Shown one piece after another: positions 3,095-58,410 of a stretch of 64,000 nucleotides of DNA. The notes under the pieces were generated by a model that had not been told where the DNA came from, made no database searches, and saw only the letters and a list, made by a program, of their open reading frames with translations. Both the position numbers and the translations under genes were made by a program. Each line of letters opens with the position of its first letter. Position 1 is the stretch's first letter. The DNA is from Escherichia phage FV3: the sequence record NC_019517.1; one strand, written 5' to 3'.

Positions 3095-3284
3095 TTCAGT
3101 TCTGATCAGGATGAAATACCGTAACTGGAAAGGTGTTGTTGCAGATCGCTGCGTTACTGAGCCTAGTTTATGGTTTGGCTCTACAGATTATCATAAAGAA
3201 GATCAGTGGTTGATGCATGCATTTGATGTAGACAAGGGCGAATATCGTGACTTCGCTTTAAAAGACATTCTTCAGTTTTACTAA
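3063..3284 (+). CDS. hypothetical protein
   Basis: 73-aa ORF, ATG with GAGGAGAGAG RBS. Confidence 0.45.
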   Translation: METKKVFNPCDSVLIRMKYRNWKGVVADRCVTEPSLWFGSTDYHKEDQWLMHAFDVDKGEYRDFALKDILQFY

Positions 3285-3296
3285 GGAATCTTAACG

Positions 3297-4280
3297 ATGA
3301 TGACAAAGTTAACTCTTGAGCAAATTTTAACACTAAAGCAACAGGGATACACCAATAGACAAATTGCTCGTGAATTTCTAGGTCGTGAGTCACGTGAGAG
3401 CTGGATCCGGCTACAGCTTAAACGTGCACAAGAGAATATGTCAGAGATTGTAGGAGAGGCAACGGAGCGCTTCCTTGAAGAACACAAAGGTGCTAAAGTT
3501 TGGGTGTATGATACAGAGACATCCCCAACAAACGGCTGGTTCTTTGGGCATTATAAGACCAACATTCAAACCTGCGGTATTGAAATTATGCCCTATATGC
3601 TAACTTTCGCAGGTAAATGGTTAGACAGCCCCAGTGTGGTTGACTGTGCTCTTCCTGATTACAAAATGTGGGGCGAGGATATCCACAACGATCTTGAGCT
3701 GATTCAAGATTTGTGGTATTATCTGGATAAATGTGATGTAGCAGTAGCACACAACTCTGGTTTTGACTGTGGGTGGGCCAACCAACGATTTGCATTTCAC
3801 GGTTTGCCGCCAACAAGCCCATACAAAGAGGTTGACACCCTCAAGATGATTAAAAAGGCATTCCGTTTGAATGCAAACACGTTAGAGTATGCATGTAAAT
3901 ACTTCCAACTGGCCCGACAGAAACTAATTGACCACACATTTGAAATGTGGATCAAGTGTGTTCATGGTGATCTTGAGGCGTTTAAACAGATGCGGGAGTA
4001 TAATGTTGGGGACATCTTGTCTCTGGAAGGCCTATATTTGCTGGCGCGTCCGTTTGCTAAGCAGCACCCCAACATGTCGTTGTACTACCAAGATGAGGAG
4101 TCAAAAGTTCGTTGCCCACGTTGTGGTGGAGAACACCTTCACGAGGAAGAGGCTTTGGCGTATACTCAACTGAGTGCATTTAAAACCTACCGCTGCGAAG
4201 GTTGTGGATCTGTTGTTCGTGATCGTAACAACATCCGTACCCGAGAAGAGATGAAAAACACCCTGATTCAGATAATCTGA
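3297..4280 (+). CDS. DnaQ-like 3'-5' exonuclease with N-terminal HTH and C-terminal zinc ribbon
   Basis: 327-aa ORF; HTH-like LKQQGYTNRQIAREF, exo motifs VYDTETS, AHNSGFDCGW, YNVGDIL, C-terminal CPRC...CEGC. Confidence 0.5.
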   Translation: MMTKLTLEQILTLKQQGYTNRQIAREFLGRESRESWIRLQLKRAQENMSEIVGEATERFLEEHKGAKVWVYDTETSPTNGWFFGHYKTNIQTCGIEIMPYMLTFAGKWLDSPSVVDCALPDYKMWGEDIHNDLELIQDLWYYLDKCDVAVAHNSGFDCGWANQRFAFHGLPPTSPYKEVDTLKMIKKAFRLNANTLEYACKYFQLARQKLIDHTFEMWIKCVHGDLEAFKQMREYNVGDILSLEGLYLLARPFAKQHPNMSLYYQDEESKVRCPRCGGEHLHEEEALAYTQLSAFKTYRCEGCGSVVRDRNNIRTREEMKNTLIQII

Positions 4281-5132: not shown

Positions 5133-5565
5133 AGAGCTTACTGATGCAAAGGCTTTTGGTGAGACAGCCGTGCAAAGGGGACAGGCTATGGGGCTGGCAC
5201 TACCTTTTGTCTTAAAAGAGCATTTTACAGATTTTCAGCTTATCCGGGGCGAAAAGGGGATGCTTATTCTGGAACATAAGCTGAGTAAGAAACGTTATAA
5301 AGTTGTTTTTAATTCTAAAGCTCCAACAAAACTTGGATTCAGAACTTACAATCTCAACCCTTCCTATACTAAGGGTGTTGGAAGAGTTGAACAGCAGCAT
5401 CTCAGTGCTAGAGCTTCTTTAGCCCCTTTGATGCTAAATTTCTCAGGTGTGGCTTTGGGATACCTGGATAAGAAAAGAGTTCTTCATGTTCGTTTTACAG
5501 ACTTTGTAACGCTTTTAGCTAACAACGAAGTAGATGAAAAGGGACGTGTAAAAACAAACTTCTAA
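5107..5565 (+). CDS. hypothetical protein
   Basis: 152-aa ORF. Confidence 0.45.
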   Translation: MIKSIDLTKELTDAKAFGETAVQRGQAMGLALPFVLKEHFTDFQLIRGEKGMLILEHKLSKKRYKVVFNSKAPTKLGFRTYNLNPSYTKGVGRVEQQHLSARASLAPLMLNFSGVALGYLDKKRVLHVRFTDFVTLLANNEVDEKGRVKTNF

Positions 5566-6391: not shown

Positions 6392-6985
6392 ATGCTGATC
6401 GGAATTGATGTAGATTTAACACTGGTAGACTCAGGAACAGCATGGTGGGAGTGGCTAGAGCGTTTATATGGTCCAGCCAGCAAGACAGTCGCTAAACCTT
6501 CTAACGGACTGATGTATTACGATCTGTCAAAGTATTGGCCTGATCGCCCCAAAGAAAACATCATAGGGCCTTTTGATTTCTGGAGTGACCCGTTCCTCTA
6601 CGACTTTCTTAAGCCTGAAGAGGGGGCTATTGAGGTTATGAAAGATTTGGTGGCTCGTGGTCACAAGCTTGCATTTATCTCTGTATGCAAGAAAGGTCAC
6701 CTTGCATCTAAATCAAGGTTCTTAAAGCGTTGGACCAGCGATTTTATGGATCTTGACGATCACACCCAGGGTCACGGCTTCTACGCCACACATTTCAAAG
6801 GTAATGTGGCTGTAGATGTTATAATTGACGACAGGCATGAATACCTGAACCAATTCGCTTCACGCCCTGAAGTTATTAAAATCTTAAAAGACACTCCTTA
6901 TGAGCAATTCGAGGAGTTGAAGGTTAGTGTTGACTATACCGCTAACAGCTGGTATAAAATAGGGAAGTTTTTAGAAGGTATTTGA
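6392..6985 (+). CDS. HAD-superfamily 5'(3')-deoxyribonucleotidase-like
   Basis: 197-aa ORF, N-terminal HAD motif I GIDVDLT. Confidence 0.45.
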   Translation: MLIGIDVDLTLVDSGTAWWEWLERLYGPASKTVAKPSNGLMYYDLSKYWPDRPKENIIGPFDFWSDPFLYDFLKPEEGAIEVMKDLVARGHKLAFISVCKKGHLASKSRFLKRWTSDFMDLDDHTQGHGFYATHFKGNVAVDVIIDDRHEYLNQFASRPEVIKILKDTPYEQFEELKVSVDYTANSWYKIGKFLEGI

Positions 6986-8971: not shown

Positions 8972-11283
8972 TCACCAAGGTAATTAAAAGCAACGGATGT
9001 GAAGTGGCATTCGATCCAGAACGTTTAAATAAGGCAGCTATTTTCGGTGACGACGGTAACGGCAATTGGTCACATATTGCACTTGATGCATACAAACGGC
9101 TGTATGATGGGTGTACAACCAAAGAAGTTAACCAAGCTATCATAGACTCCTGTGTTAGCCGTAAAGACGAAGCTCATTCTCGTATGGCTGGTCGTGTTCT
9201 TATCGGTCAGATTTATAAAGAGGCTTTTGGAGGATTTACAAAGATCCCTTCCTTACCCTCATTTTACAATACCATGGTTGATAAAGGGTATTGGGAGGAT
9301 ATGGGTTATAGCTTTACCGAGTTAAACACTTTAGACGCTGTTATTGATCACAGTAAAGATCTCGGTTATGGCTATGCAGTCCTTAAACAGTTTCGCGACA
9401 AATATGGGATCAAGGATACTCTTAAAGACACCCTGTTTGAATCTCCCCAGATGATGTTTATGGGGATAGCAATGGCTGTCATGAAGAATATGCCGAAAGA
9501 ACGTCGTATCAACGATGTTGTAAAATTATACACTTATCTGTCGGACTTGAAGATTAATGCCCCGACACCGTACTTAAACGGTCTACGCACAGGTAAGACA
9601 GGGTATGCATCTTGTTGCGTAATAAAAGCTGACGATACAGCAAAATCTATTGGTGTGGCACGTGAAGTTGCGTACACAATGACGGTTAACCAAGCAGGTA
9701 TTGGCTACTATCTATCATCAAGATCTGCAGGTGATGGTGTTCGTGGTAACACTATTAAACATATGGGCAAGCTTCCATATTATCGAGGCATTGATGCTGG
9801 GGTTAAGGAGAATAGACAACAATCACGCGGAGGTTCGGCAACGGTATCATTCCTTGCGCTAGATCCCCAGATTGATGAACTGATCCGTTTGAGAAACCCT
9901 ATGACTGTTGCTTCAAAAAGAATCAACACTATGGACTACTCTATAGGTATTAATAGATCATTTATCAACCGTGTGGCTAAGAATTTAGATTGGATGCTTG
10001 TTTCTTATAAGCACGCACCTCAACTGCACGAGGGTATCTTCACCATGTCTATGGATGAGTTTGATGCAGAGGTTGATCGTATCGCTAAAGATGACAGCAT
10101 TCCTAAAACATGGATCCGTGCTAGAGACCTTGCTGTTGAACTGATCACGCAGCGTACCGAGGTAGGCAGGCTGTATGTGTACTGGACAGATGAGATGAAT
10201 AGGCATACACCTTTTAAAGATGTAATCTATTCAAGTAATCTGTGTGCAGAGATAGCCCTTCCGACAAAAGGCTATTCAGATATGCGTAATATCTTCAAGT
10301 ACGATGCTGATGATGGTGAGGTTGCATTGTGCTTCCTATCATCCCTTGTAGCTGGAAGGGTTACCCCAGAGGAGTATGAGGATGTTGCATACTACACTGT
10401 GCTTATGATTGACAATGTTATGGAAATCATGACATATCCGTATGAAAATATGGAGAGCACTGTTAAAAAACGCAGATCCATCGGGGTTGGCCTTACCAAT
10501 ATTGCACATTTTATTGCCAGCCACAAGGTTGCTTACGGGTCTCCTGAAAGTAAACAGCTTGTTCACGATCTTGCAGAGCTTCACAGCTACAGCTTGCATA
10601 AGGCAAGTTTACGATTGGCAAAAGAGCGTGGTGTCTGCGAGTGGATGCATAAAACAAAATACCCAGAGGGTTGGTTACCAATCGACACTTATAACAAAGA
10701 GGTCGATAGTGTGGTGAAAGATCCTTCTCTTAAGCAGGATTGGGAAGGGTTACGTAAAGAAATTATTGAAAACGGTGGACTACGTAATAGCGTTCTTGAA
10801 GCATATATGCCTAATGAAAGCTCCTCGTTGGCAACAAACACAACTAACGGGGTTTATCCTGTCCGTGAGCACATTATCTTTAAAAAGTCGCCACAAGGAC
10901 AGGTGCTGTTTATCGTTCCTGAATATGATGAACTGAAAGAGTATTATACCTCGGCTTGGGACGTTGATACTAACGACATGATTGATATGTATGCTGTGAT
11001 TCAAAAATTCACAGGACAGGCAATCAGTGCTGACCTATATATTGATTACACCAAGTTGAAAGATGGTAAAATTTCAATGAAGGAGCAGCTTGGGTATCTT
11101 ATCCGTGCTACTAAATTCGGGATGAAGACATGGTATTACTTAAACTCTCGGGTTGGTGCTGGTGACTCTTTGACAGAGGAGCTTCACGCGAAGAAACAGG
11201 CTGAAGATGAAACCAGAAAGAACTATCCTTTGATTGCAGATAGTTCAGTTGAAGATCCGTATTGCGAAAGTTGTGCACTGTAA
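8968..11283 (+). CDS. nrdA: ribonucleotide reductase class I large subunit
   Basis: 771-aa ORF; N-terminal ATP-cone (VIKSNGCEVAFDPERL), active-site NLCAEIALP, C-terminal Cys pair. Confidence 0.9.
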   Translation: MITKVIKSNGCEVAFDPERLNKAAIFGDDGNGNWSHIALDAYKRLYDGCTTKEVNQAIIDSCVSRKDEAHSRMAGRVLIGQIYKEAFGGFTKIPSLPSFYNTMVDKGYWEDMGYSFTELNTLDAVIDHSKDLGYGYAVLKQFRDKYGIKDTLKDTLFESPQMMFMGIAMAVMKNMPKERRINDVVKLYTYLSDLKINAPTPYLNGLRTGKTGYASCCVIKADDTAKSIGVAREVAYTMTVNQAGIGYYLSSRSAGDGVRGNTIKHMGKLPYYRGIDAGVKENRQQSRGGSATVSFLALDPQIDELIRLRNPMTVASKRINTMDYSIGINRSFINRVAKNLDWMLVSYKHAPQLHEGIFTMSMDEFDAEVDRIAKDDSIPKTWIRARDLAVELITQRTEVGRLYVYWTDEMNRHTPFKDVIYSSNLCAEIALPTKGYSDMRNIFKYDADDGEVALCFLSSLVAGRVTPEEYEDVAYYTVLMIDNVMEIMTYPYENMESTVKKRRSIGVGLTNIAHFIASHKVAYGSPESKQLVHDLAELHSYSLHKASLRLAKERGVCEWMHKTKYPEGWLPIDTYNKEVDSVVKDPSLKQDWEGLRKEIIENGGLRNSVLEAYMPNESSSLATNTTNGVYPVREHIIFKKSPQGQVLFIVPEYDELKEYYTSAWDVDTNDMIDMYAVIQKFTGQAISADLYIDYTKLKDGKISMKEQLGYLIRATKFGMKTWYYLNSRVGAGDSLTEELHAKKQAEDETRKNYPLIADSSVEDPYCESCAL

Positions 11284-16290: not shown

Positions 16291-16319
16291 TAGCGTAATG
16301 AAAGCAGAGGAGGTGCCAA

Positions 16320-16433
16320 ATGGCTAAAAAGGCCTTGAAGAAGGCGTACAAAAAAGAGATTGCGCTTGAGCTTAAGAAAAAACACAAGCGTGAAAAGAAA
16401 CATCATGAGGATGAAGAGGGGGTGCAACAGTGA
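16320..16433 (+). CDS. small lysine-rich basic protein (37 aa)
   Basis: ATG after AGAGGAGG RBS; MAKKALKKAYKKEIALELKKKHKREKKHHEDEEGVQQ; stop overlaps GTG of next ORF. Confidence 0.35.
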   Translation: MAKKALKKAYKKEIALELKKKHKREKKHHEDEEGVQQ

Positions 16434-19183: not shown

Positions 19184-19717
19184 ATGACTTGTGCTAGAAA
19201 ACCTGATGAACAACGTAACGCTTACGACGAGTATGTGACACCGGAGTGGTGTGCAGAAGGGCTGTATGACCTTATTCCGTTCCCAGAAGACTGGACCTAC
19301 TTAGAGCCTTGCAGGAATAGCGCTTCAGGTGTGTTCTACTCCCGTATGCCGTTAGGATCTGCATGGGGAGAAATTCAAGAAGGTGTTGACTATCTGAATA
19401 CAGAATACAACCATGTTGACTGTATTATCACCAACCCGCCGTACAGCCTGGCTCGTGAGTTTGTGGACAAGGCGTTGAAAGATGCCGACGTAGTTATTAT
19501 GCTTTTGCGTCTTAATTTTCTGGAAAGCAAGACCAGATTTGAATGGTGGCTTGATAATGCACCTACCACTGTGATCACAATATCTAAGCGTCCGTCATTC
19601 CAATCCAATGGTAGAACGGATGGGCAGGCATATGCCTATTTTGTATGGGACAAGAAAAACCGTCTAGGCTTGCCGCCATTTATGTGGTTGGCACCACCAG
19701 AGGCAGACTTGAAATGA
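19184..19717 (+). CDS. DNA methyltransferase (NPPY motif), probable N6-adenine
   Basis: 177-aa ORF with DCIITNPPYSLAREF. Confidence 0.5.
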   Translation: MTCARKPDEQRNAYDEYVTPEWCAEGLYDLIPFPEDWTYLEPCRNSASGVFYSRMPLGSAWGEIQEGVDYLNTEYNHVDCIITNPPYSLAREFVDKALKDADVVIMLLRLNFLESKTRFEWWLDNAPTTVITISKRPSFQSNGRTDGQAYAYFVWDKKNRLGLPPFMWLAPPEADLK

Positions 19718-20275: not shown

Positions 20276-20670
20276 AGATTGAGATCACTAAAGAAGGTAA
20301 GAAAGTGTCTGGCGATTATGCAACAGTAATTCGGGATGTAATGTTTGAAGTAACCCAGATTGGTACGTCTAAGGTTGGTCAAACGGTAAGTGTGCAAGGT
20401 AATATTGCCACAGGTGAAAAGATAATCATTGTGATCAAAGGACAAGACCCTGTGGAAGGAACAGTGGGCCGAGGAGGCTACCTGTGCATTTCTGAAGAAC
20501 CGCGTATGCTGGTTGCTGATGACTCCACAGGTAAAAAGCGGGTATGTAACACGGACGAGGTGATGATTATCTATCCAGTCAACCCAGATGATCCGGCAAC
20601 ATGGATTGTGGGAAATGAAATCTTCTCTTTAGAAGAGTTATCCTTCCCAGCTCCGCGCTCTGTTCAGTAA
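20272..20670 (+). CDS. hypothetical protein (possible small acidic family member)
   Basis: 132-aa ORF starting MKIEIT. Confidence 0.45.
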   Translation: MKIEITKEGKKVSGDYATVIRDVMFEVTQIGTSKVGQTVSVQGNIATGEKIIIVIKGQDPVEGTVGRGGYLCISEEPRMLVADDSTGKKRVCNTDEVMIIYPVNPDDPATWIVGNEIFSLEELSFPAPRSVQ

Positions 20671-35627: not shown

Positions 35628-35696
35628 TCTGTCATGTTGGCGGCATCATTGCCGCCCTACGAAATACATTCTACCCGATTTGTAATTGTTGTCAAA

Positions 35697-35921
35697 CTAA
35701 TTTTTACAAGGGATCAGTAAACTTCTTGCTACTGCTTCGCGTAGTCCTTGACTTTTTATCAGATCTATTGTTGCAGGATGGCAAGTAAAAGCCTTTGACC
35801 ATTTTTGATCCCCTGGTTTACGGGCAAAAATGTAAACTTCCCCGTCGATTTCATCCCAACGAGTATTGCTTGTTAGTTTTTTAAGCGCCATGATGATTTC
35901 CCTTTTAGTTGTGAGCGGCAC
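35697..35921 (-). CDS. hypothetical protein
   Basis: 74-aa ORF. Confidence 0.45.
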   Translation of the reverse strand: MPLTTKREIIMALKKLTSNTRWDEIDGEVYIFARKPGDQKWSKAFTCHPATIDLIKSQGLREAVARSLLIPCKN

Positions 35922-35966
35922 TATTGCCGCCCTATGTGATACATCTTAAACTAATTTAAAACGTTG

Positions 35967-36200
35967 TCAACACTTTTCAAAAAATTTTTCTGCCGTGATA
36001 TTCTTCCCGGTAGGGTTCGCTACTTTCAAAATTTTATCATGCACTGGACGCCCAAAAGAATAAGCGCCGTACACAGTGCACCAATAATCGCCGTCAGGCT
36101 GTACTATTACCGCCGCATAGGGTACGCCTTTTTCGTTTTTGCTGACAAAATAGATCACATTGCCATTAATAGCCTCAGCGCGTTTAATTTGTTCCATCAT
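35967..36200 (-). CDS. hypothetical protein
   Basis: 77-aa ORF. Confidence 0.45.
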   Translation of the reverse strand: MMEQIKRAEAINGNVIYFVSKNEKGVPYAAVIVQPDGDYWCTVYGAYSFGRPVHDKILKVANPTGKNITAEKFFEKC

Positions 36201-36777: not shown

Positions 36778-37083
36778 TTATCTGGAGAAAACATCGTTCA
36801 CAATAGCGATCACAATGCCGCCCACCTTGTCACGGTCAACAATGCACAAATCACCATAGATCATGTGGTAGTCTGGATGATCTTTCACGGAATAGTCAAT
36901 GAGTGTCTTCTTATCGTCCAGCTTTTTGACTTCCATGGTCATTGTAATGAATTGATCGTTAAAGGCACTATTGCGGAAGACCATTACCTGGCCGCCTTGA
37001 CATCCAGTGATCTCAACTTCCACGCCGTCTACGATCTGACCATCAAAGAAATAAAGATTATTGGCGGGTATAAACATGATCAT
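36778..37083 (-). CDS. hypothetical protein
   Basis: ATG at 37083 (MIMFIP...) after AAGGAG RBS. Confidence 0.5.
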   Translation of the reverse strand: MIMFIPANNLYFFDGQIVDGVEVEITGCQGGQVMVFRNSAFNDQFITMTMEVKKLDDKKTLIDYSVKDHPDYHMIYGDLCIVDRDKVGGIVIAIVNDVFSR

Positions 37084-37121
37084 TGCTCCTTTTTGCACTG
37101 ATTATTTTAACAGGGTTTAAA

Positions 37122-37170
37122 TTTACTTTATTGATGGCCCTGGAGTCAAGGCCATCTAAAAATAAACTTT
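37122..37170 (-). promoter_or_regulatory. repeat copy 1 of 3: promoter-like element with -35 inside a palindrome
   Basis: On minus strand GATGGCC-TTGACTCCAG-GGCCATC then 17 nt then TAAA(C/T)T; ~47-bp core near-identical at 40841-40888 and 41463-41510. Confidence 0.5.
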
Positions 37171-37369
37171 ACAGGCCTACAATATCTTTAATTCGTTTTA
37201 CTGCTGCCTCAGCGCCTTGAGGGTAAAAATTATGGTAACCAATCACGCGGGTAATACTGATCGCCGCCTGATGATCTTCATAATACCCCTTGAATATTTC
37301 TTGACCATCAACCAGCACAGCAATTTTTTCTTCTTTTTTGAAGTTAATAACGCGGATATTGTTGCTCAT
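37169..37369 (-). CDS. hypothetical protein
   Basis: 66-aa ORF. Confidence 0.4.
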   Translation of the reverse strand: MSNNIRVINFKKEEKIAVLVDGQEIFKGYYEDHQAAISITRVIGYHNFYPQGAEAAVKRIKDIVGL

Positions 37370-37516
37370 TTTGTTTCTCCTTTTGGAACTTTGTCTGTGT
37401 GGTGGGGAGTGTCTCCCCGTTGATTGTTATTATCCATATTTTTGACCGGGTTGCAACACCCCGGAAGAAAAATTTTTTGAAAAAAGTTAGGCCCCCAGGG
37501 ATCGGGGGCCGTTATC

Positions 37517-37636
37517 AGTTACTTACAGCGATAAAATACATCCCTACGCCTAACAATATTTCAAGGGCGATGATCTCAAGCCATACCATAACACGGCGCG
37601 CCTTATCGGTGCGGGGCTTATCCTTGGGTGTCATCG
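37517..37636 (-). CDS. micro-ORF encoding 39-aa hydrophobic peptide
   Basis: ATG after AGGGGGAG RBS; MTPKDKPRTDKARRVMVWLEIIALEILLGVGMYFIAVSN. Confidence 0.3.
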
Positions 37637-37654
37637 TCTCCCCCTTTCCTCCTG

Positions 37655-37876
37655 TTAGTAGTGACGTGGTTTACAATGGTCCCCAGGAGTACTATCGCCA
37701 CGCACATTACGAGAAAAATTATTTCTTCCGTTGTTCGGTCCATTATTATAAAAGTCCTCAAGATCAGGCCTAAAAGTAAATCCTTCGTTATTGAATCCAT
37801 CCCGCCAGGCGGCTGGCCTCAAATCTTCACTAAATGGATTAATTAACGTGGCATTATTTAAACGGCTGGCCCACAT
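37655..37876 (-). CDS. hypothetical Asn-rich protein
   Basis: ATG at 37876 after GAGAGG RBS; overlaps end of next gene, low confidence. Confidence 0.3.
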   Translation of the reverse strand: MWASRLNNATLINPFSEDLRPAAWRDGFNNEGFTFRPDLEDFYNNGPNNGRNNFSRNVRGDSTPGDHCKPRHY

Positions 37877-38225
37877 ATTTTCTATTCCTCTCAAATAGGC
37901 GATCCGCCTCAGTTAAACAAATCTCATGGGCGTGATCTCTGGTTTTAGCTTCATCGAAAACCTGTTGTGCAAGGCTGCAACGTAGGGAGACTGGAAGATC
38001 GCTATAATAGGCGTTAACAAACGTTTGAGCGTCGTACAGGTCTGAAAATACTTTACCCTTTCTATTATTCCCCTTGTCAACAATTGCAAGGATAACCAAT
38101 ACAATAGTTGCAACCACCCCCAGGAAAATAGATATAATAAACCATAAAAAGGCGGATCTCCCCATCTTGCCAGCGATCCAGGCGTTAAACAAGGCAACCA
38201 ATATAGCCAAAATAATAAATTCCAT
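37854..38225 (-). CDS. membrane protein
   Basis: ATG at 38225 (MEFIILAILV...) after AGAGG RBS; two TM segments. Confidence 0.5.
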   Translation of the reverse strand: MEFIILAILVALFNAWIAGKMGRSAFLWFIISIFLGVVATIVLVILAIVDKGNNRKGKVFSDLYDAQTFVNAYYSDLPVSLRCSLAQQVFDEAKTRDHAHEICLTEADRLFERNRKYVGQPFK

Positions 38226-38289
38226 TCTATGTACCTCTTTTACAGTTCTGATCAACAATAAGGCGGCAAATATGCCGCCTGTTACCTGA

Positions 38290-38670
38290 TTAAAAATTAT
38301 CGCCGTAAATCTTTCCGCTTTCTACCCATACCACCACGCGAGGCATACTATCCCACACGTCTTGTTTTAGATTGAGCGCGTGCAATTCTTCGGTGGTGCT
38401 CATACCGGGCACGGGCTGATTGTATACTGCAAAACGACCACCCGCATAATCATAGGCCAGGGTTAAATCACACTGGATCATCTTTTTGATCATGGCATTA
38501 AGCATGGCGTTAGCCGCATACTGATCACGTTTTAAAGGCAACTCTTTGATTAGTTTGCGATAGTTTTCGATATGGTCGCACACTGTTTCACGCGGAAGAT
38601 CTTTCATATCTTCACGGAATGTAACCAGGTTAAACATAACGGTGTCAATAGCCTTGGTAGTGTTTTTCAT
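38290..38670 (-). CDS. hypothetical protein
   Basis: 126-aa ORF. Confidence 0.5.
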   Translation of the reverse strand: MKNTTKAIDTVMFNLVTFREDMKDLPRETVCDHIENYRKLIKELPLKRDQYAANAMLNAMIKKMIQCDLTLAYDYAGGRFAVYNQPVPGMSTTEELHALNLKQDVWDSMPRVVVWVESGKIYGDNF

Positions 38671-38758
38671 GATTTTATCCTCTTTGTTTTGTGTGGGGCA
38701 AGACGTTTGCCCCTTGAGTTTTAATATAGCAGGTTTTTAGATTATTGCAACACTTTAT

Positions 38759-39382
38759 TTATGAAAAACTCATCTCCCCATATTCATCCACATCAAACCT
38801 CCAATCATTGGCCTCAATAAGGCCGATCAGGTTTTCGGTAGTGAACTGTTCTAGATAGGCCTCCTCCAGGTCTACGTAAACCTTGCGGGATAGCTCCCGT
38901 ACCGTCTCGGTGATCAGCTCTTCCAGGTCTTCCACTTTGTTTTCTTGTTTAGCGGTCAGATCTAGCCATGTGGTATCAATGTACCCGCTTACAGTGTTTT
39001 CATGGCTGTAATGGCTGTACTTGTCGCGTTCAATACTGGCGGATAGTTCGCCATCGTGCATTGTGCCGAACAAGTGACGAATTGATCTGAACTTGGTCAG
39101 GGCCTTGACTTTACGCAAGAATTTTTCTAAGTCTACATTTTCAGCACTGATCGATGCGCCATCGCCTTGACACCAAAAGCCGGACCAATGTACTTCGGTA
39201 TCTTCAAGGCCGTACTCTGGAAAAACTTGTTCTTTATAGTATTCAATTACATTTTCTGCGAAAAAATCATCCCCGCTGCGTTCTTCTCTTTCGCGGACCA
39301 TTTCAATGGCTTTTTCTTTTTGTTCGTCGGTCAGCACGTCGAAAGATAAATTGTAACCTGTGGTAATGTTAACGGTGGTCAT
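38759..39382 (-). CDS. hypothetical acidic protein
   Basis: 207-aa ORF with HWSGFWCQGDGASI motif; family not recognised. Confidence 0.5.
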   Translation of the reverse strand: MTTVNITTGYNLSFDVLTDEQKEKAIEMVREREERSGDDFFAENVIEYYKEQVFPEYGLEDTEVHWSGFWCQGDGASISAENVDLEKFLRKVKALTKFRSIRHLFGTMHDGELSASIERDKYSHYSHENTVSGYIDTTWLDLTAKQENKVEDLEELITETVRELSRKVYVDLEEAYLEQFTTENLIGLIEANDWRFDVDEYGEMSFS

Positions 39383-39410
39383 GATATTTTCTCCTGTTTT
39401 CTTTGTTAGT

Positions 39411-39468
39411 GGCGGGAAGTTTTCCCGCCTATGTTTTTAATTATACTTATTGAGATCTACTTGTCAAC
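39411..39468 (-). promoter_or_regulatory. sigma70-like promoter (TTGACA-17-TATAAT) followed by GGCGGGAA/TTCCCGCC palindrome
   Basis: Minus-strand TTGACA (plus 39463-39468) and TATAAT (plus 39440-39445); perfect palindrome 39411-39429 between promoter and RBS. Confidence 0.5.
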
Positions 39469-39717
39469 ACTATTTTTTAAATTATTGTGGCGCAAAATGT
39501 TTAAAATCTCCTCAACGTCATCAACACGGCGGCAATTTTTAAACGCTACCAATTGCCCCATGATTTTAATCACTGGGCGGCCTTGCCAGTGCCCCTGAAG
39601 AAAGCGCGCCTTGACTTTATCGGTGGAACTATCACGCCACCAAATAGCCTTGTTGTTGCAGTAGTAAAAATTATTCAGGATAACATCAACTTTATCAAAA
39701 TTTTTTAATTTACGCAT
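39457..39717 (-). CDS. hypothetical protein
   Basis: 86-aa ORF. Confidence 0.45.
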   Translation of the reverse strand: MRKLKNFDKVDVILNNFYYCNNKAIWWRDSSTDKVKARFLQGHWQGRPVIKIMGQLVAFKNCRRVDDVEEILNILRHNNLKNSVDK

Positions 39718-39936
39718 GGCGTTTACTCCTTTCTCTCTTTGATGTGGTTAGTATAGCTAACCTGTTGACGATGTCAATGATATTTTTAACGCCATAAAAC
39801 GGCCCTAGGCGATGCTTTCAGGTTAAAGGGGGGCGATTGCATAGGTGGGGGCCTTTTTGGCGCTTACAGGGCCAACCAGGGGCGCTATTCGTAGGATAGA
39901 AATAAAAAGCCCCGCACAATGGCGGGGCGTTGGTTG

Positions 39937-40158
39937 TTATTTGTCTTTATGGCGGTATCGTTCTGCCTGTCGTTCACGTTCCAAAAGTAGGCCGGGCAAT
40001 TTACGATCATAATGATTCCGCCAGATCTTCCCAAACCTTTTTGGCTTATTCAGTTTATTGTTGCGCTGTCGGCGTTCTGGCAGCTCTTCGGAATCATGAG
40101 GGCGCTTTACAATTTTCTCGAAATTAATTTTCATATATTCCCCCCTTGCTAACTTCAA
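39937..40158 (-). CDS. small basic protein
   Basis: 73 aa, Arg/Lys-rich. Confidence 0.4.
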   Translation of the reverse strand: MKLARGEYMKINFEKIVKRPHDSEELPERRQRNNKLNKPKRFGKIWRNHYDRKLPGLLLERERQAERYRHKDK

Positions 40159-40477
40159 TATTGGCCTGAATAGCCCGGATACGGCGCTTTATAACTTCCT
40201 GATCTGTGTGGTCGTATCCCCAAAAGTCTACAATTTTTGCGCCCCCCGCCTCCAGGCGGTATAGTGTTTCCTGCATTTTGTAAGCCGGGATCGGTCGCGG
40301 TGTTACTTGGTCGCCTTCTTTATTTTTATACTTTATAATATAATCTTCGTTATCGTTGAATGTCCAAAATGGATATTCTGCAAGGGCGGTACTTCCTCTT
40401 TCCTTTTTATCCTGGATCTTGTTTACAATTAAAGCCGTAGCAATAGCGCCAATAATAAAACTAGCCCCGCTGATCAT
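40124..40477 (-). CDS. membrane-anchored protein
   Basis: 117 aa with N-terminal TM segment. Confidence 0.45.
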   Translation of the reverse strand: MISGASFIIGAIATALIVNKIQDKKERGSTALAEYPFWTFNDNEDYIIKYKNKEGDQVTPRPIPAYKMQETLYRLEAGGAKIVDFWGYDHTDQEVIKRRIRAIQANIEVSKGGIYEN

Positions 40478-40553
40478 GTGTACTTTCTCCTTTCATGGTG
40501 TTAATAAATTATCTTTATAGATGGCCCTGCAACCAGGACCACCGAAAAAATAA

Positions 40554-40799
40554 CTATTTCACAATGCCTACAAAACAGATCCCGCCTTCACCTATGTAAG
40601 CAATATCGGTAACTTTATAATTTGTCAAGATCTGCTTATTTAGTTCATTAATAAAATCGGTCATTGCGTTGGTGTAGTTGTCTTCCATGTCTAGGGAATA
40701 ATCCCAGGCGTAGACCTTTTTACGCCCGAAGCCTTTTACCATGATACGGGCGCTTTTGGTGTTGGTGGGCGCATAATATTTTGTGATTAGTGCTGCCAT
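40554..40799 (-). CDS. hypothetical protein
   Basis: 81-aa ORF; RBS GAGGAG. Confidence 0.5.
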   Translation of the reverse strand: MAALITKYYAPTNTKSARIMVKGFGRKKVYAWDYSLDMEDNYTNAMTDFINELNKQILTNYKVTDIAYIGEGGICFVGIVK

Positions 40800-40840
40800 G
40801 GGTTTTAACTCCTCATTAGTTCAGTGTTAACAGTGTAAAG

Positions 40841-40888
40841 TTTACTTTATTGATGGCCCTGGAGTCAAGGCCATCTAAAAATAAATTT
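40841..40888 (-). promoter_or_regulatory. repeat copy 2 of 3: promoter-like element with palindrome
   Basis: Near-identical to 37122-37170; immediately upstream of 40554..40799. Confidence 0.5.
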
Positions 40889-41229
40889 TACTCGTTTTCT
40901 TCCAGCTCTGAAAGCTCTTCTTTCACTTCTTCCAGCTCTGTCTGCAATTCCTGGTATTCTTCATCGTCCTCAATATCCAGGCTGTCGATGTAGTCGCTAA
41001 ATCCGCAGCGGTAAGCGATAGGATCTAACTCCTTGAGGATACGCGACGGAAGAAAAGAAATGTTTCCGATCATAATTTCGCCGTAGATCTCGTCTAGCCA
41101 TTCATCATAGTTTTCGTCGTACTTGTCCTCGTCGATTTCAAAGTTATCGATCTTGTTCTCAAGGTCTGCGATCTGTTTTTTCAGCGCGGCGATCTGCATA
41201 GCTTTTTCTGCGGCGGTCATAGTAGTCAT
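40888..41229 (-). CDS. hypothetical acidic coiled-coil protein
   Basis: 113-aa ORF; RBS AAAAGGAGAAAA. Confidence 0.5.
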   Translation of the reverse strand: MTTMTAAEKAMQIAALKKQIADLENKIDNFEIDEDKYDENYDEWLDEIYGEIMIGNISFLPSRILKELDPIAYRCGFSDYIDSLDIEDDEEYQELQTELEEVKEELSELEENE

Positions 41230-41253
41230 GGTGTTTTCTCCTTTTTTGTGTTT

Positions 41254-41308
41254 TGGGAAGTTTTCCCGTTTACGTGTTTAAGTATACCGATTTAGGTTAG
41301 CTTGTCAA
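41254..41308 (-). promoter_or_regulatory. sigma70-like promoter (TTGACA-16-TATACT) followed by GGGAA/TTCCC palindrome
   Basis: Minus-strand TTGACA (plus 41303-41308), TATACT (plus 41281-41286); palindrome GGGAAGTTTTCCC 41254-41266. Confidence 0.45.
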
Positions 41309-41428
41309 TTAAAAATTTAAGAAAAATTTTGCAAAACTGTTGGCGCTACTCATTAACATTTGCGCCAGGATGTAACCGACAACGCAAACGATAATAGTTA
41401 CCTTTGTGTATTGGCGTGTAGTGCTCAT
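41309..41428 (-). CDS. micro-ORF encoding 39-aa hydrophobic peptide
   Basis: ATG at 41428 after AAGGGGG RBS; downstream of repeat copy 3. Confidence 0.35.
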   Translation of the reverse strand: MSTTRQYTKVTIIVCVVGYILAQMLMSSANSFAKFFLNF

Positions 41429-41462
41429 CTTAAAGCCCCCTTTTTCGCTTAGTTGAGACTAG

Positions 41463-41510
41463 TTTACTTTATTGATGGCCCTGGAGTCAAGGCCATCTAA
41501 AAATAAACTT
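41463..41510 (-). promoter_or_regulatory. repeat copy 3 of 3: promoter-like element with palindrome
   Basis: Near-identical to 37122-37170. Confidence 0.5.
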
Positions 41511-41913
41511 AATAAGTTTTCAGTACTTTCCCGTCCAACCTGTCAAGCTGGATCTCGATAGCTGCAGAAAATCTATTGTACACCACGTCGCCCATAGAAT
41601 CCAACCAATCTATGACGTTATATACCTGCTCTTTATTCTTACAGGTCCGGATCCGTTTCATGATGTAAGCCGGATCAATATTGGTACTCTCGTTGGTGTT
41701 CCCCTGTACCTGGTTTGCCGTATTAGTTACATCTTTAATGGCCTTTACCACCACCTGGAATGGCTTTAAGGTGCCTTTTGCGTTCATCTCACGCGCTTTT
41801 GCGGCGCGGTTGTTGTATGTTACACAACGGCGGCAAATGTTGATCAAATGCATGTCAATAATTTTTTCATCGTTTGCCAGCTCGTTCATGATGCGGCGTA
41901 CGTTCTTATTCAT
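41509..41913 (-). CDS. hypothetical protein
   Basis: 134-aa ORF. Confidence 0.5.
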   Translation of the reverse strand: MNKNVRRIMNELANDEKIIDMHLINICRRCVTYNNRAAKAREMNAKGTLKPFQVVVKAIKDVTNTANQVQGNTNESTNIDPAYIMKRIRTCKNKEQVYNVIDWLDSMGDVVYNRFSAAIEIQLDRLDGKVLKTY

Positions 41914-41933: not shown

Positions 41934-41989
41934 GCGGGAAACATTCCCGCCTTTTGTGCCCAGTTTACTTGAATTTTGCAGCGTGTCAA
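41934..41989 (-). promoter_or_regulatory. promoter-like element (TTGACA-..-TAAACT) followed by GGCGGGAA/TTCCCGCC palindrome
   Basis: Palindrome GGCGGGAAACATTCCCGCC 41934-41952; minus-strand TTGACA at plus 41984-41989. Confidence 0.4.
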
Positions 41990-43290: not shown

Positions 43291-43399
43291 TTCTAAATGA
43301 GAACTTTTCGCATTTCATAAATTTAGTTAGCATGCTAATTACCTACCGTGACAATTCTATATAAAATAATACCTCATAAAATATTCCCATATAGAAATT

Positions 43400-43600
43400 T
43401 TAAAAATCCATTTCTGAAAACGAAAAATCGCTTTCGTTCCCAAAAATTTTAGATCTGGTGCTGGACCAATTTCAAGAAAATCCGATTCAGAAAACGAAAA
43501 ACAGATCGAGTACCGAAAAATTTATCGAGAAAAATTTTCAGAAAATCCAATCTTTGAAATGAAAAACAGATCGAGTACTGAGAGAGATGTATCAAAACTT
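43400..43600. repeat. tandem imperfect direct repeats (~65-75 bp period, three copies)
   Basis: Units begin AAAATCC(A/G)(T/A)T..GAAA(A/T)(C/G)GAAAAA; two units also share CAGATCGAGTAC; further AAATCCATTTT motifs at 43750-43860. Confidence 0.45.
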
Positions 43601-47382: not shown

Positions 47383-47411
47383 CAAAAATGCCCCACCCTT
47401 TCGGGCAGGGC
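47383..47411 (-). terminator. intrinsic terminator after SSB-like gene (repeat of 58383-58410)
   Basis: Minus-strand GCCCTGCCC-GAAA-GGGTGGGGC hairpin followed by U-run. Confidence 0.5.
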
Positions 47412-58382: not shown

Positions 58383-58410
58383 CAAAAAGCCCCACCCTTT
58401 CGGGCAGGGC
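58383..58410 (-). terminator. intrinsic terminator (repeat of 47383-47411)
   Basis: Same GCCCTGCCC-GAAA-GGGTGGGGC hairpin plus U-run, after stop of 58417..58899. Confidence 0.5.

What the first reader, a model, noticed from the sequence alone, without database searches (positions are those of the whole stretch)
37122..41510. Three near-identical ~47-bp elements with a promoter -35 hexamer embedded in a palindrome
TTTACTTTATTGATGGCCCTGGAGTCAAGGCCATCTAAAAATAAA(C/T)TT occurs at 37122-37170, 40841-40888 and 41463-41510, each immediately upstream of a leftward gene. On the transcribed strand each reads GATGGCC-TTGACTCCAG-GGCCATC, then 17 nt, then TAAA(C/T)T. That is a -35-like TTGACT centred in the loop of a 7-bp inverted repeat with a -10-like hexamer at correct spacing. 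Exact conservation among diverged flanks suggests a shared operator for a dimeric regulator or a selected DNA/RNA structure.
Basis: seen in the sequence. Interest (0 to 1): 0.55.

Follow-up and report, generated by a model that had tools for sequence, protein, structure and literature searches.

The report
Repeated intergenic RNA hairpin in coliphage
Four copies of a ~50-nt sequence between small early genes of an rV5-like E. coli phage encode one two-tier RNA hairpin that evolution preserves on the transcribed strand. It is a promoter/stem-loop cassette of the kind known to shuffle genes in T4-like phages, not a promoter with a protein operator.

Summary
The 24-nt core occurs exactly three times (0 expected by chance), and there is a fourth, diverged copy at 40507-40555. 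The window is an rV5-like phage (Vequintavirus). A complete rV5 genome has exactly these four copies, all in the leftward early ORFan block.

Each copy starts at the stop codon of the upstream gene. In the leftward mRNA it folds into a 10-bp AU-rich lower stem, a 2x3 internal loop, a 10-bp GC-rich upper stem and a tetraloop (about -25 kcal/mol).

Across 22 genomes the helix is 98.3% paired on the transcribed strand and 85.2% on the complement. All upper-stem changes are Watson-Crick/G.U switches, and four lower-stem pairs change on both sides. The stems are 6-10 times more conserved than the flanks, while the loop is hypervariable. The fourth copy keeps the helix but has no TTGAC.

So an RNA structure is the selected feature, not an operator. 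It has no U tract, and gene D depends on read-through of the promoter-less copy, so it is not an efficient terminator. My best guess is an intercistronic processing or stability signal like the T7 RNase III sites.

The TTGACT-N18-TAAAYT promoter (18 nt spacing, not 17) is plausible but unproven. The copies also recombine, through gene conversion and recurrent loss of a 620-bp cassette. The closest known kind is the PeSL.

The parts
41461..41509 (-). The stop codon of the upstream ORF (41509-41511) overlaps its first base.
   Evidence: 83.6 bits
40839..40887 (-). The upstream stop codon at 40888-40890 abuts it.
   Evidence: (82.8 bits)
40507..40555 (-). Copy c405: diverged fourth copy. It has the same fold (GGUGGUCCUG-GUUG-CAGGGCCAUC), maintained by G.U pairs. 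It has no TTGAC. The upstream stop codon UAG (40554-40556) overlaps the stem.
   Evidence: -24.6 kcal/mol on the - strand against -10.4 on the + strand; 74.7 bits
37120..37168 (-). The upstream stop codon at 37169-37171 abuts it.
   Evidence: 85 bits
40839..40868 (-). Putative sigma70 promoter inside c408: TTGACT-N18-TAAACT, with the -35 hexamer spanning the top of the upper stem and the loop. Equivalent sites are 41461-41490 (c414) and 37120-37149 (c37, TAAATT).
   Evidence: 9/12 match, spacer 18. Predicted as a promoter by PhagePromoter in MT682716. There is no experimental evidence.
40888..41460 (-). Cassette between c414 and c408: a 39-aa membrane ORF (41309-41428), a near-consensus promoter with a hairpin (41255-41308), and the 113-aa ORF B (40888-41229). 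The cassette is missing from three relatives, which carry a hybrid c414/c408 junction instead.
41281..41308 (-). Conventional early promoter TTGACA-N16-TATACT, followed by a GC hairpin. It drives the operon B-c408-C-c405-D.
   Evidence: (D5). Its rV5 orthologue is annotated as P192.
40554..40799 (-). ORF C (81 aa), flanked by c408 and c405.
   Evidence: no Pfam family
40124..40477 (-). ORF D (117 aa). Its RBS starts about 12 nt after c405 and there is no promoter in between, so its expression requires read-through of c405.
39909..39928 (-). Canonical intrinsic terminator (GC stem followed by UUUUUAUUU) that ends the operon. It shows what a real terminator looks like in this phage.
41509..41913 (-). 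ORF A (134 aa), upstream of c414.
37169..37369 (-). 66-aa ORF upstream of c37. The ORF downstream of c37 is 36778-37077 (99 aa).

Best explanation
The three near-identical 47-bp repeats and a fourth diverged copy form a Vequintavirus-specific family of intercistronic elements in the leftward early ORFan block.

Shown:
- In the leftward transcript each copy forms a ~49-nt two-tier hairpin that begins at the stop codon of the upstream gene. It consists of a 10-bp AU-rich lower stem, a 2x3 internal loop, a 10-bp GC-rich upper stem and a tetraloop.
- Selection preserves this RNA helix. It does not preserve the loop sequence or the DNA palindrome.
- The copies are substrates for homologous recombination. 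This shows up as gene conversion between neighbouring copies and as recurrent deletion of the 620-bp cassette between two copies.

Inferred:
- The hairpin acts after transcription on polycistronic early mRNAs, as an intercistronic processing or stability signal.
- The most likely form is a host RNase III site of the T7 type, about 22 bp of interrupted helix. Cleavage there would uncouple neighbouring cistrons and leave a protective 3' hairpin on the upstream message.
- It is not a terminator or an operator.
- The three canonical copies may also fire as modest sigma70 promoters (TTGACT-N18-TAAAYT). That would make them PeSL-type composite cassettes.

Sub-confidences: RNA helix is the selected feature 0.9; not an efficient terminator 0.75; recombination substrate 0.9; RNase III specifically 0.35; promoter active in canonical copies 0.45.
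For: - Fold: all four copies adopt the same fold on the - strand, at about -25 kcal/mol with z-scores of -4.2 to -6.2. The + strand of the diverged copy reaches only -10.4 kcal/mol (z -0.7).
- Pairing: in 32 distinct cores from 22 genomes, 98.3% of cells pair on the transcribed strand. The upper helix is 100% paired and its four variable pairs all switch between Watson-Crick and G.U. Four lower-stem pairs change on both sides. No shuffle out of 500 reaches the observed pairing or covariation, and slid controls give 35-57%. The complement strand pairs at 85.2%, and the same four upper-stem pairs become mismatches there.
- Energy: 48 of 48 distinct variants fold better on the transcribed strand.
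- Constraint: pairwise diversity per site is 0.011-0.015 in the stems and internal loop, 0.223 in the loop, and 0.08-0.12 in the flanks.
- c405 has no -35 yet is conserved in all 22 sampled genomes.
- One orthologue has loop and internal-loop insertions that keep the helix but stretch the -35/-10 spacer to 20 nt.
- No U tract follows the hairpin on either strand, and the terminator scan does not flag it. Gene D has no promoter other than read-through of c405, and the operon ends at a canonical terminator.
- The geometry matches the T7 R1 intergenic hairpin. RNase III accommodates about 22 bp (PMC6212723).
- Recombination: hybrid junctions occur in ECP32, ime and an IMG/VR contig, on different flank haplotypes. 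c414 and c408 share their loop variant in 11 of 18 genomes against 5.3 expected (p=0.003).
Against: - There are no transcript data for any rV5-like phage, so processing, stabilisation, attenuation and promoter activity are all untested.
- RNase III sequence preferences could not be scored, because the matrix is not available here.
- The genome has only four copies among about 75 small early genes. That is few for a general processing signal.
- A C-to-U mutation bias on the sense strand would by itself enrich G.U pairs. The strand-asymmetry test rests on about seven independent upper-stem events.
- The outer three pairs of the lower stem are often mismatched in c408.
- TTGAC and TAAAYT are invariant in almost all canonical copies, which is also what a functional promoter predicts.
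- PeSL stem-loops were reported to terminate efficiently in a reporter assay (PMC2839356).
Confidence: 0.5

Rival explanations
1. Classical PeSL. The element is above all a sigma70 early promoter fused to a transcription terminator or attenuator. The stem-loop stops transcription coming from upstream, and the embedded promoter restarts it for the downstream ORFan, so each gene cassette is insulated.
For: - All sequence features of a PeSL are present in the three canonical copies: a stop codon in an AT-rich tract, a stem-loop overlapping the -35 box, -35/-10 hexamers, and an SD plus ATG (for the definition).
- TTGAC and TAAAYT are conserved in 61 of 62 canonical copies.
- PhagePromoter predicts a promoter, and Murica annotators called c405 and c37 terminators.
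- Another probable promoter in the window uses the same -10 hexamer, TAAACT (41989).
- TH18 has an analogous element with the -10 hexamer in a hairpin loop.
- A PeSL stem-loop reduced reporter expression as strongly as rrnB T1 (PMC2839356).
Against: - No U tract follows the hairpin; the 3' flank is A-rich.
- c405 lacks a promoter, yet gene D has no other promoter. Efficient termination at c405 would silence gene D.
- The promoter match is marginal: 9/12 with an 18-nt spacer. Half of such matches are expected by chance in this region.
- Promoter function does not explain why the 18-nt 'spacer' is almost invariant.
Confidence: 0.25
2. The element is a promoter whose -35 lies inside a DNA palindrome that serves as the operator for a dimeric, phage- or host-encoded DNA-binding regulator.
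For: The three canonical copies have a perfect 7-bp inverted repeat, GATGGCC/GGCCATC, around TTGACT. The four copies cluster in a 4.4-kb region, which could define a small regulon.
Against: - Substitutions degrade the DNA palindrome but always keep RNA pairing on one strand.
- Conservation extends over a second, AU-rich helix with compensatory changes, which an operator does not need.
- The centre of the 'operator' is the most variable part.
- c405 has two half-site mismatches and no promoter to regulate.
Confidence: 0.05
3. The element is a selfish or neutral recombination linker. The repeats would be remnants of cassette insertion, kept identical by gene conversion, with no regulatory role.
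For: - c414 and c408 evolve in concert.
- Cassette loss has recurred in at least two, and probably three, backgrounds.
- There are only four copies, all among ORFans.
- One copy in phage Gotham has lost its 3' arm without the phage being lost.
Against: - c405 is too diverged from the other copies to be homogenised with them, yet it keeps the fold through wobble and compensatory changes across 22 genomes.
- Pairing is strand-specific.
- Gene conversion alone would not leave the loop free to vary while freezing the stems.
Confidence: 0.07
4. The element is a single-stranded DNA hairpin on the non-template strand. It would be extruded during replication or transcription and used as a priming, nicking or N4-like hairpin-promoter signal.
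For: G.T wobble pairs are also tolerated in DNA hairpins, so the strand asymmetry does not formally exclude ssDNA.
Against: The position, exactly between a stop codon and the next RBS in co-oriented operons, is what an mRNA element predicts. Nothing examined in the window or the relatives pointed to an N4-type polymerase, although this was not searched for specifically.
Confidence: 0.03

Closest known systems
PeSLs (promoter-early stem-loops) of T4-like phages RB49/phi1, T4/PST and KVP40/nt-1 (Arbiol et al. 2010, PMC2839356; Comeau et al. 2014, PMC4122927)
   Same: - Repeated ~50-100-bp intergenic composites in ORFan-rich early regions.
- The stop codon lies in an AT-rich tract.
- A stable stem-loop that may overlap the -35 box, with G-T pairs noted in the stems.
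- Sigma70-like hexamers, followed by an SD and ATG.
- Recombination between copies deletes or inserts ORFan cassettes.
- rV5 early ORFs even have RB49 homologues.
   Different: - Found in a different subfamily (Vequintavirinae). No report of this was found in the literature I could search.
- The promoter match is weaker: 9/12 with N18, against near-consensus with N17.
- The stem-loop is a 22-bp two-tier helix without a U tract, and context indicates it is read through.
- One copy has the helix but no promoter.
- There are only four copies.
- Strand-specific covariation here shows the stem-loop is selected as RNA, which was not analysed for PeSLs.
Intercistronic RNase III processing sites of the phage T7 early operon (R0.3, R0.5, R1, R1.1, R1.3)
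   Same: - Hairpins in the short gaps between co-transcribed early genes of a coliphage.
- A lower stem, internal loop, ~9-10-bp GC-rich upper stem and small loop. The centroid fold of T7 R1 has a 2x3 internal loop and a tetraloop.
- About two helical turns in total, matching the ~22-bp RNase III footprint.
- The copies resemble one another.
- In T7 a minor E. coli promoter (C, at 3113) lies within the R1 hairpin region.
   Different: Cleavage has not been demonstrated here. There is no sequence homology to the T7 sites. RNase III pair preferences were not testable. There are four sites in one 4.4-kb stretch, not one after every gene of the operon.
REP/BIME elements of E. coli
   Same: Repeated imperfect palindromes placed just after stop codons inside operons. 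They act as RNA 3' stabilisers and as recombination hot-spots (from my own knowledge).
   Different: REPs are ~35 nt, occur in hundreds of host copies, have a different consensus and carry no promoter hexamers.
Rho-independent terminators
   Same: A GC-rich hairpin directly after a gene. Murica annotators labelled two of the copies 'terminator'.
   Different: There is no 3' U tract on either strand. U-rich sequence precedes the stem and A-rich sequence follows it. The element lies inside an operon that has its own canonical terminator.

Membership tests
PeSL (promoter-early stem-loop cassette) | Repeated motif in the intergenic space between an upstream stop codon (in an AT-rich tract) and the SD/ATG of the next gene, within an ORFan-rich early (hyperplastic) region | tested here: met
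   All four copies start within -2 to +1 nt of a stop codon and end 29-43 nt before the next start codon. The flanking genes have no Pfam family.
PeSL (promoter-early stem-loop cassette) | Stable stem-loop in one of five positions relative to the promoter, including overlapping the -35 box | tested here: met
   The hairpin folds at about -25 kcal/mol with z-scores of -4 to -6. TTGACT spans the top of the stem and the loop. Definition from PMC2839356, section 14.
PeSL (promoter-early stem-loop cassette) | Sigma70-like -35/-10 hexamers close to consensus, with about 17-nt spacing | tested here: inconclusive
   The canonical copies have TTGACT-N18-TAAAYT, a 9/12 match at the threshold of the scan. 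c405 has no acceptable -35.
PeSL (promoter-early stem-loop cassette) | Recombination between copies produces indels of the intervening ORFan(s) among close relatives | tested here: met
   ECP32, ime and IMG/VR contig L009 lack the cassette between c414 and c408 and carry hybrid junctions. Concerted evolution between c414 and c408, p=0.003.
PeSL (promoter-early stem-loop cassette) | Demonstrated promoter activity, and terminator/attenuator activity of the stem-loop | not testable with these tools
   This needs reporter fusions or transcript mapping. Context argues against efficient termination.
E. coli RNase III processing site (T7 type) | About 20-22 bp of mostly continuous intramolecular dsRNA, often with an internal loop between two stems | tested here: met
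   10 + 10 bp with a 2x3 internal loop. Same layout as the T7 R1 fold. The ~22-bp footprint is from PMC6212723.
E. coli RNase III processing site (T7 type) | Base-pair preferences and anti-determinants in the proximal, middle and distal boxes around the cleavage site | not testable with these tools
   The preference matrix is only in a figure and a supplement that are not held.
E. coli RNase III processing site (T7 type) | rnc-dependent cleavage in vivo or in vitro | not testable with these tools
   No transcriptome data for rV5-like phages were found.
Intrinsic (Rho-independent) terminator | GC-rich hairpin immediately followed by a U-rich tract | tested here: not met
   The hairpin is followed by AAUAAAGUAAA on the - strand and UAAAAAUAAA on the + strand. 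The terminator scan does not list it on either strand, although it does find the genuine terminator at 39928-39909.
Sigma70 promoter with palindromic operator | Half-site symmetry conserved at the DNA level, that is, equally on both strands | tested here: not met
   All four variable upper-stem pairs stay paired on the transcribed strand and become mismatches on the complement.
Any Rfam family | Match to a curated covariance model | tested here: not met
   The best overlapping match is 23.1 bits (E=3.4) to rhtB, whose gathering score is 55.

The most novel reading that the evidence does not exclude
The element is a true dual-use signal. As DNA, the loop and 3' arm form a sigma70 promoter. As RNA in read-through transcripts, the same bases form an RNase III-type processing hairpin. 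Transcript re-initiation and cleavage of upstream messages would then be coupled at one 49-nt module, which also acts as a portable recombination linker for ORFan cassettes. The related '-10 hexamer in the loop' elements of TH18 would be a sister design. Together they would make hexamer-in-hairpin cassettes a general feature of Vequintavirinae early regions.
Probability: 0.15. Interest if true: 0.55.

Novelty: new member of a known kind. Interest (0 to 1): 0.3.

Why it matters
It would extend PeSL-type cassettes beyond the T4-like phages. These are small promoter/stem-loop modules that insulate ORFan genes and let phages gain and lose them by homologous recombination. Vequintaviruses are a widely used group of therapeutic and biocontrol coliphages.

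It also supplies a kind of evidence I did not find in the PeSL papers: the stem-loop is selected as RNA on the transcribed strand, and at least here it is unlikely to be a simple terminator.

On the practical side, public records annotate these sites in contradictory ways (promoter in one, terminator in another, nothing in others). The repeats also explain a recurrent 620-bp deletion polymorphism among sequenced isolates.

Tried and rejected
- Rfam scan of 34-46 kb at a permissive threshold: nothing relevant.
- Anchored pattern scan of IMG/VR: 15 loci, of which only the Vequintavirus contigs carry the element; the rest are chance hits.
- Metagenome scan via the 81-aa neighbour gene: only 4 loci.
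- Search for diverged homologues in other genera. Gene D is restricted to Vequintavirus. The distant homologues of gene C are in unrelated phages. Phage TH18, which belongs to Vequintavirinae but not to Vequintavirus, has no hit with the covariance model.
- No further copies in the 64-kb window or in the whole rV5 genome.
- The rV5 paper's promoter and terminator tables do not contain the element.
- The T7 RefSeq record carries no RNase III site features. The site positions therefore come from memory and were checked only against the intergenic gaps.
- The RNase III pair-preference matrix is unavailable, so no sequence-rule score could be computed.
- The intrinsic-terminator reading was rejected: there is no U tract, and read-through is required.
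- The operator reading was rejected because of the strand asymmetry.
- A ToxI-like decoy RNA (phage PhiTE, PMC3475682) was considered and dropped. Those are tandem 36-nt repeats, not dispersed hairpins.
- Technical slips that were corrected: a first regex caught only the c405 class, and two translations were off by one base (fixed).

Full report
1. THE OBSERVATION

The 24-nt core GATGGCCCTGGAGTCAAGGCCATC occurs three times on the + strand, at 37133, 40852 and 41474. None of 100 dinucleotide-preserving shuffles contains a match.

The repeat finder adds a fourth, 60%-identical copy at 40509-40571. A covariance model built from the four copies finds exactly these four in the 64-kb window with filters off. 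The next best hit has E about 1.

The hexamer spacing is 18 nt, not 17. I call the copies c414, c408, c405 (the diverged one) and c37.

2. GENOMIC CONTEXT

The window is an rV5-like phage of the genus Vequintavirus, 96% identical to vB_EcoM_SYGMH1 over 6.5 kb. The region is the leftward early block of small genes. All six genes flanking the copies lack any Pfam family above cutoff.

BLAST finds the element in 119 phage records, all Vequintavirus-like, typically at three places each. The complete rV5 genome has exactly four model hits, all between 110.8 and 115.2 kb.

The flanking gene D occurs only in this genus. TH18, a phage that belongs to Vequintavirinae but not to Vequintavirus, has no hit. 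Rfam has no matching family.

Published and deposited annotation is inconsistent:
- The rV5 genome paper lists 33 promoters and 20 terminators, but neither arm of this element appears in its Table S4 (PMC3606486).
- The rV5 and EdH4 records annotate nothing there.
- Gotham labels the canonical copies 'promoter, predicted by PhagePromoter'.
- Murica labels c405 and c37 as 45-nt 'terminator' features.

3. ANATOMY

On the - strand, which is the sense strand of all neighbouring genes, every copy begins within -2 to +1 nt of the stop codon of the upstream ORF. Every copy ends 29-43 nt before the next start codon.

As RNA, all four copies adopt one fold:
- a 10-bp AU-rich lower stem;
- a 2x3 internal loop;
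- a 10-bp GC-rich upper stem (GAUGGCCUUG/CAGGGCCAUC);
- a tetraloop.

The fold has about -25 kcal/mol and z-scores of -4.2 to -6.2. TTGACT spans the last three pairs of the upper stem and the first three loop bases. TAAAYT is the 3' end of the lower stem.

The diverged copy reads GGUGGUCCUG-GUUG-CAGGGCCAUC. The helix survives through two extra G.U pairs, and the -35-like hexamer is gone. On the + strand this copy folds at only -10.4 kcal/mol (z -0.7).

4. COMPARATIVE TEST

I collected the region from 22 genomes and extracted 84 copies.

Pair counts on the 32 distinct co-linear 49-nt cores:
- On the transcribed strand 98.3% of cells are standard pairs.
- The upper helix is 100% paired. Its four variable pairs all switch only between Watson-Crick and G.U.
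- The lower helix is 96.6% paired. Four of its pairs change on both sides, for example U-A to C-G and A-U to U-A.
- No shuffle out of 500 reaches the observed pairing or covariation score. Slid registers give 35-57%.
- On the complementary strand the same structure is 85.2% paired, and those four upper-stem pairs become mismatches.

All 48 distinct 56-nt variants fold better on the transcribed strand. Class means are -21.6 to -24.7 kcal/mol, against -9.7 to -16.7.

Pairwise diversity per site among orthologous copies:
- upper stem 0.013;
- inner lower stem 0.011;
- internal loop 0.015;
- tetraloop 0.223;
- upstream coding sequence 0.081;
- downstream sequence 0.117.

A caveat applies. A C-to-U bias on the sense strand would by itself favour G.U pairs. 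The upper-stem argument rests on about seven independent transitions, all of which preserve pairing, and no transversions. Taken together with the lower-stem double changes and the 6-10-fold excess conservation of the stems, I consider an RNA-level helix established. The only formal alternative is a non-template-strand ssDNA hairpin.

5. WHAT IT IS NOT

It is not an operator. The DNA palindrome degrades where the RNA helix does not, a second AU helix co-varies, and the centre of the 'operator' is the most variable part.

It is not an intrinsic terminator. The hairpin is followed by AAUAAAGUAAA, and by UAAAAAUAAA on the other strand. The terminator scan ignores it but does find the canonical terminator at 39928-39909.

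The context is the operon P(41308, TTGACA-N16-TATACT)-B-c408-C-c405-D-...-T(39928). The RBS of gene D starts about 12 nt after c405, with no promoter in between. D can therefore only be expressed by read-through of c405.

6. THE PROMOTER QUESTION

TTGACT-N18-TAAAYT is a 9/12 match at the scan threshold. The region yields 49 such matches against 25.8 expected by chance. The obvious early promoters score 10-12/12 with 16-17-nt spacers.

In favour of a promoter:
- TTGAC and TAAAYT are kept in 61 of 62 canonical copies, and the variable loop positions are hexamer position 6 and the first spacer base.
- Another probable promoter, at 41989, uses TAAACT as its -10 hexamer.
- PhagePromoter predicts these sites.

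Against a promoter:
- c405 has none.
- One c414 orthologue (L019) has insertions that give a 20-nt spacer with an intact helix.
- Promoter function cannot explain the invariance of the 18-nt 'spacer'.

I put the probability of promoter activity in the canonical copies at about 0.45. It is not the feature that explains the conservation.

7. LIKELY MECHANISM

The selected object is about 22 bp of interrupted dsRNA, placed exactly between cistrons of co-transcribed early genes and read through by RNA polymerase. That is the architecture of the T7 early-operon RNase III sites.

Folding the T7 gene 0.7-gene 1 gap (site R1; the site position is from memory and is consistent with the gene gaps) gives an interrupted lower stem, a 2x3 internal loop, a 9-bp upper stem and a tetraloop. 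The T7 record places the minor E. coli promoter C inside that region. E. coli RNase III accommodates about 22 bp (PMC6212723).

I therefore favour an intercistronic processing or stability signal. RNase III specifically gets about 0.35; a 3'-exonuclease barrier or an attenuator are the other possible forms. The RNase III pair-preference matrix was not available, so sequence rules are untested.

8. RECOMBINATION

ECP32, ime and an IMG/VR contig lack the ~620-bp cassette between c414 and c408. That cassette holds a 39-aa membrane ORF, a consensus promoter with a hairpin, and the 113-aa ORF B. These genomes carry a hybrid element with the c414 left flank and the c408 right flank, and the flanking haplotypes differ among the three.

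c414 and c408 share their loop variant in 11 of 18 genomes against 5.3 expected (p=0.003). c37, which lies 3.7 kb away, does not show this.

9. COMPARISON WITH WHAT IS KNOWN

PeSLs of T4-like phages are defined as repeated intergenic composites with these parts: a stop codon in an AT-rich tract, sigma70 hexamers, and a stable stem-loop in one of five positions, explicitly including overlap with the -35 box. G-T pairs are noted in the stems. An SD and ATG follow. Recombination between PeSLs deletes and inserts ORFans (PMC2839356 section 14; PMC4122927).

The canonical copies meet every sequence-level criterion. The differences are:
- the phage lineage (no paper links PeSLs with rV5);
- the weaker promoter;
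- the two-tier helix that lacks a U tract and is read through;
- the promoter-less fourth copy.

The window also contains consensus-promoter-then-hairpin repeats (families D3 and D5). TH18 has repeats with the -10 hexamer inside a hairpin loop. PeSL-like designs therefore seem general in this subfamily.

10. VERDICT

The element is a new member of a known kind (PeSL-type cassette), with useful evidence on what its stem-loop is. Interest is modest.

Noticed in passing
window 43394-43581: Three direct repeats of ~49-71 nt, spaced 74 and 65 nt apart, in a stretch without convincing ORFs (family D2). TH18 has an analogous triplet at L037 13953-14165 (family D2), and the rV5 paper's map shows a 'non-coding' box. 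They look like iterons and could mark a replication origin or a regulatory region.
   Followed up: no
window 35635-35695, 35910-35970, 39414-39467, 41255-41308: Two repeat families (D3 and D5). On the - strand each is a near-consensus TTGACA-N16-TATAAT promoter followed about 10 nt later by a GC hairpin such as GGCGGGAAAACUUCCCGCC. This matches the PeSL subclass with the stem-loop downstream of the -10 box.
   Followed up: partly
L037 (phage TH18, ON075799) 16312-16393, 19374-19455, 20546-20627: A Vequintavirinae phage outside Vequintavirus has its own repeated composite: TTGACT-N16-TAGAAT, with the -10 hexamer in the loop of an 8-bp inverted repeat (ATGCCGTG/CACGGCAT). A diverged copy keeps the hairpin through compensatory changes.
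   Followed up: partly
GenBank MG0656xx records (for example MG065662, MG065644): About 17-21 records named 'Campylobacter phage' (host C. jejuni, several flagged UNVERIFIED) are 93-95% identical to E. coli rV5-like phages over this region. This probably reflects contamination or mislabelling.
   Followed up: no
L030 (Murica KT001917) 3482-3526 and 6869-6913; L002 (Gotham MT682716) 5532-5561 and 9275-9304: The same element family is annotated as 'terminator' in one record and as 'promoter' in another. It is left unannotated in rV5 and EdH4.
   Followed up: yes
L002 4890-4943; L019 4277-4337; L020 4959-5018: Natural variants. Gotham's c414 has a 5-nt deletion that removes most of the 3' arm, leaving -8.9 kcal/mol. 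A metagenome genome has a 5-nt loop and an enlarged internal loop, giving a 20-nt hexamer spacer. Another has an extra G in the 3' arm. They are useful as natural mutants.
   Followed up: partly
window 47385-47411 and 58384-58410: A 27-nt sequence, AAAA(T/A)GCCCCACCCTTTCGGGCAGGGC, occurs twice, 11 kb apart, at 96% identity (family D9). It looks like a shared hairpin or terminator.
   Followed up: no
L036 (T7 NC_001604) 3101-3170: The annotated minor E. coli promoter C (3113) lies within the hairpin predicted for the gene 0.7-gene 1 gap, where the R1 RNase III site maps. This is a precedent for a host promoter overlapping a processing hairpin.
   Followed up: partly
window 41962-41989 (- strand): The probable promoter upstream of ORF A reads TTGACA-N16-TAAACT, so it uses the same unusual -10 hexamer as the element.
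   Followed up: no
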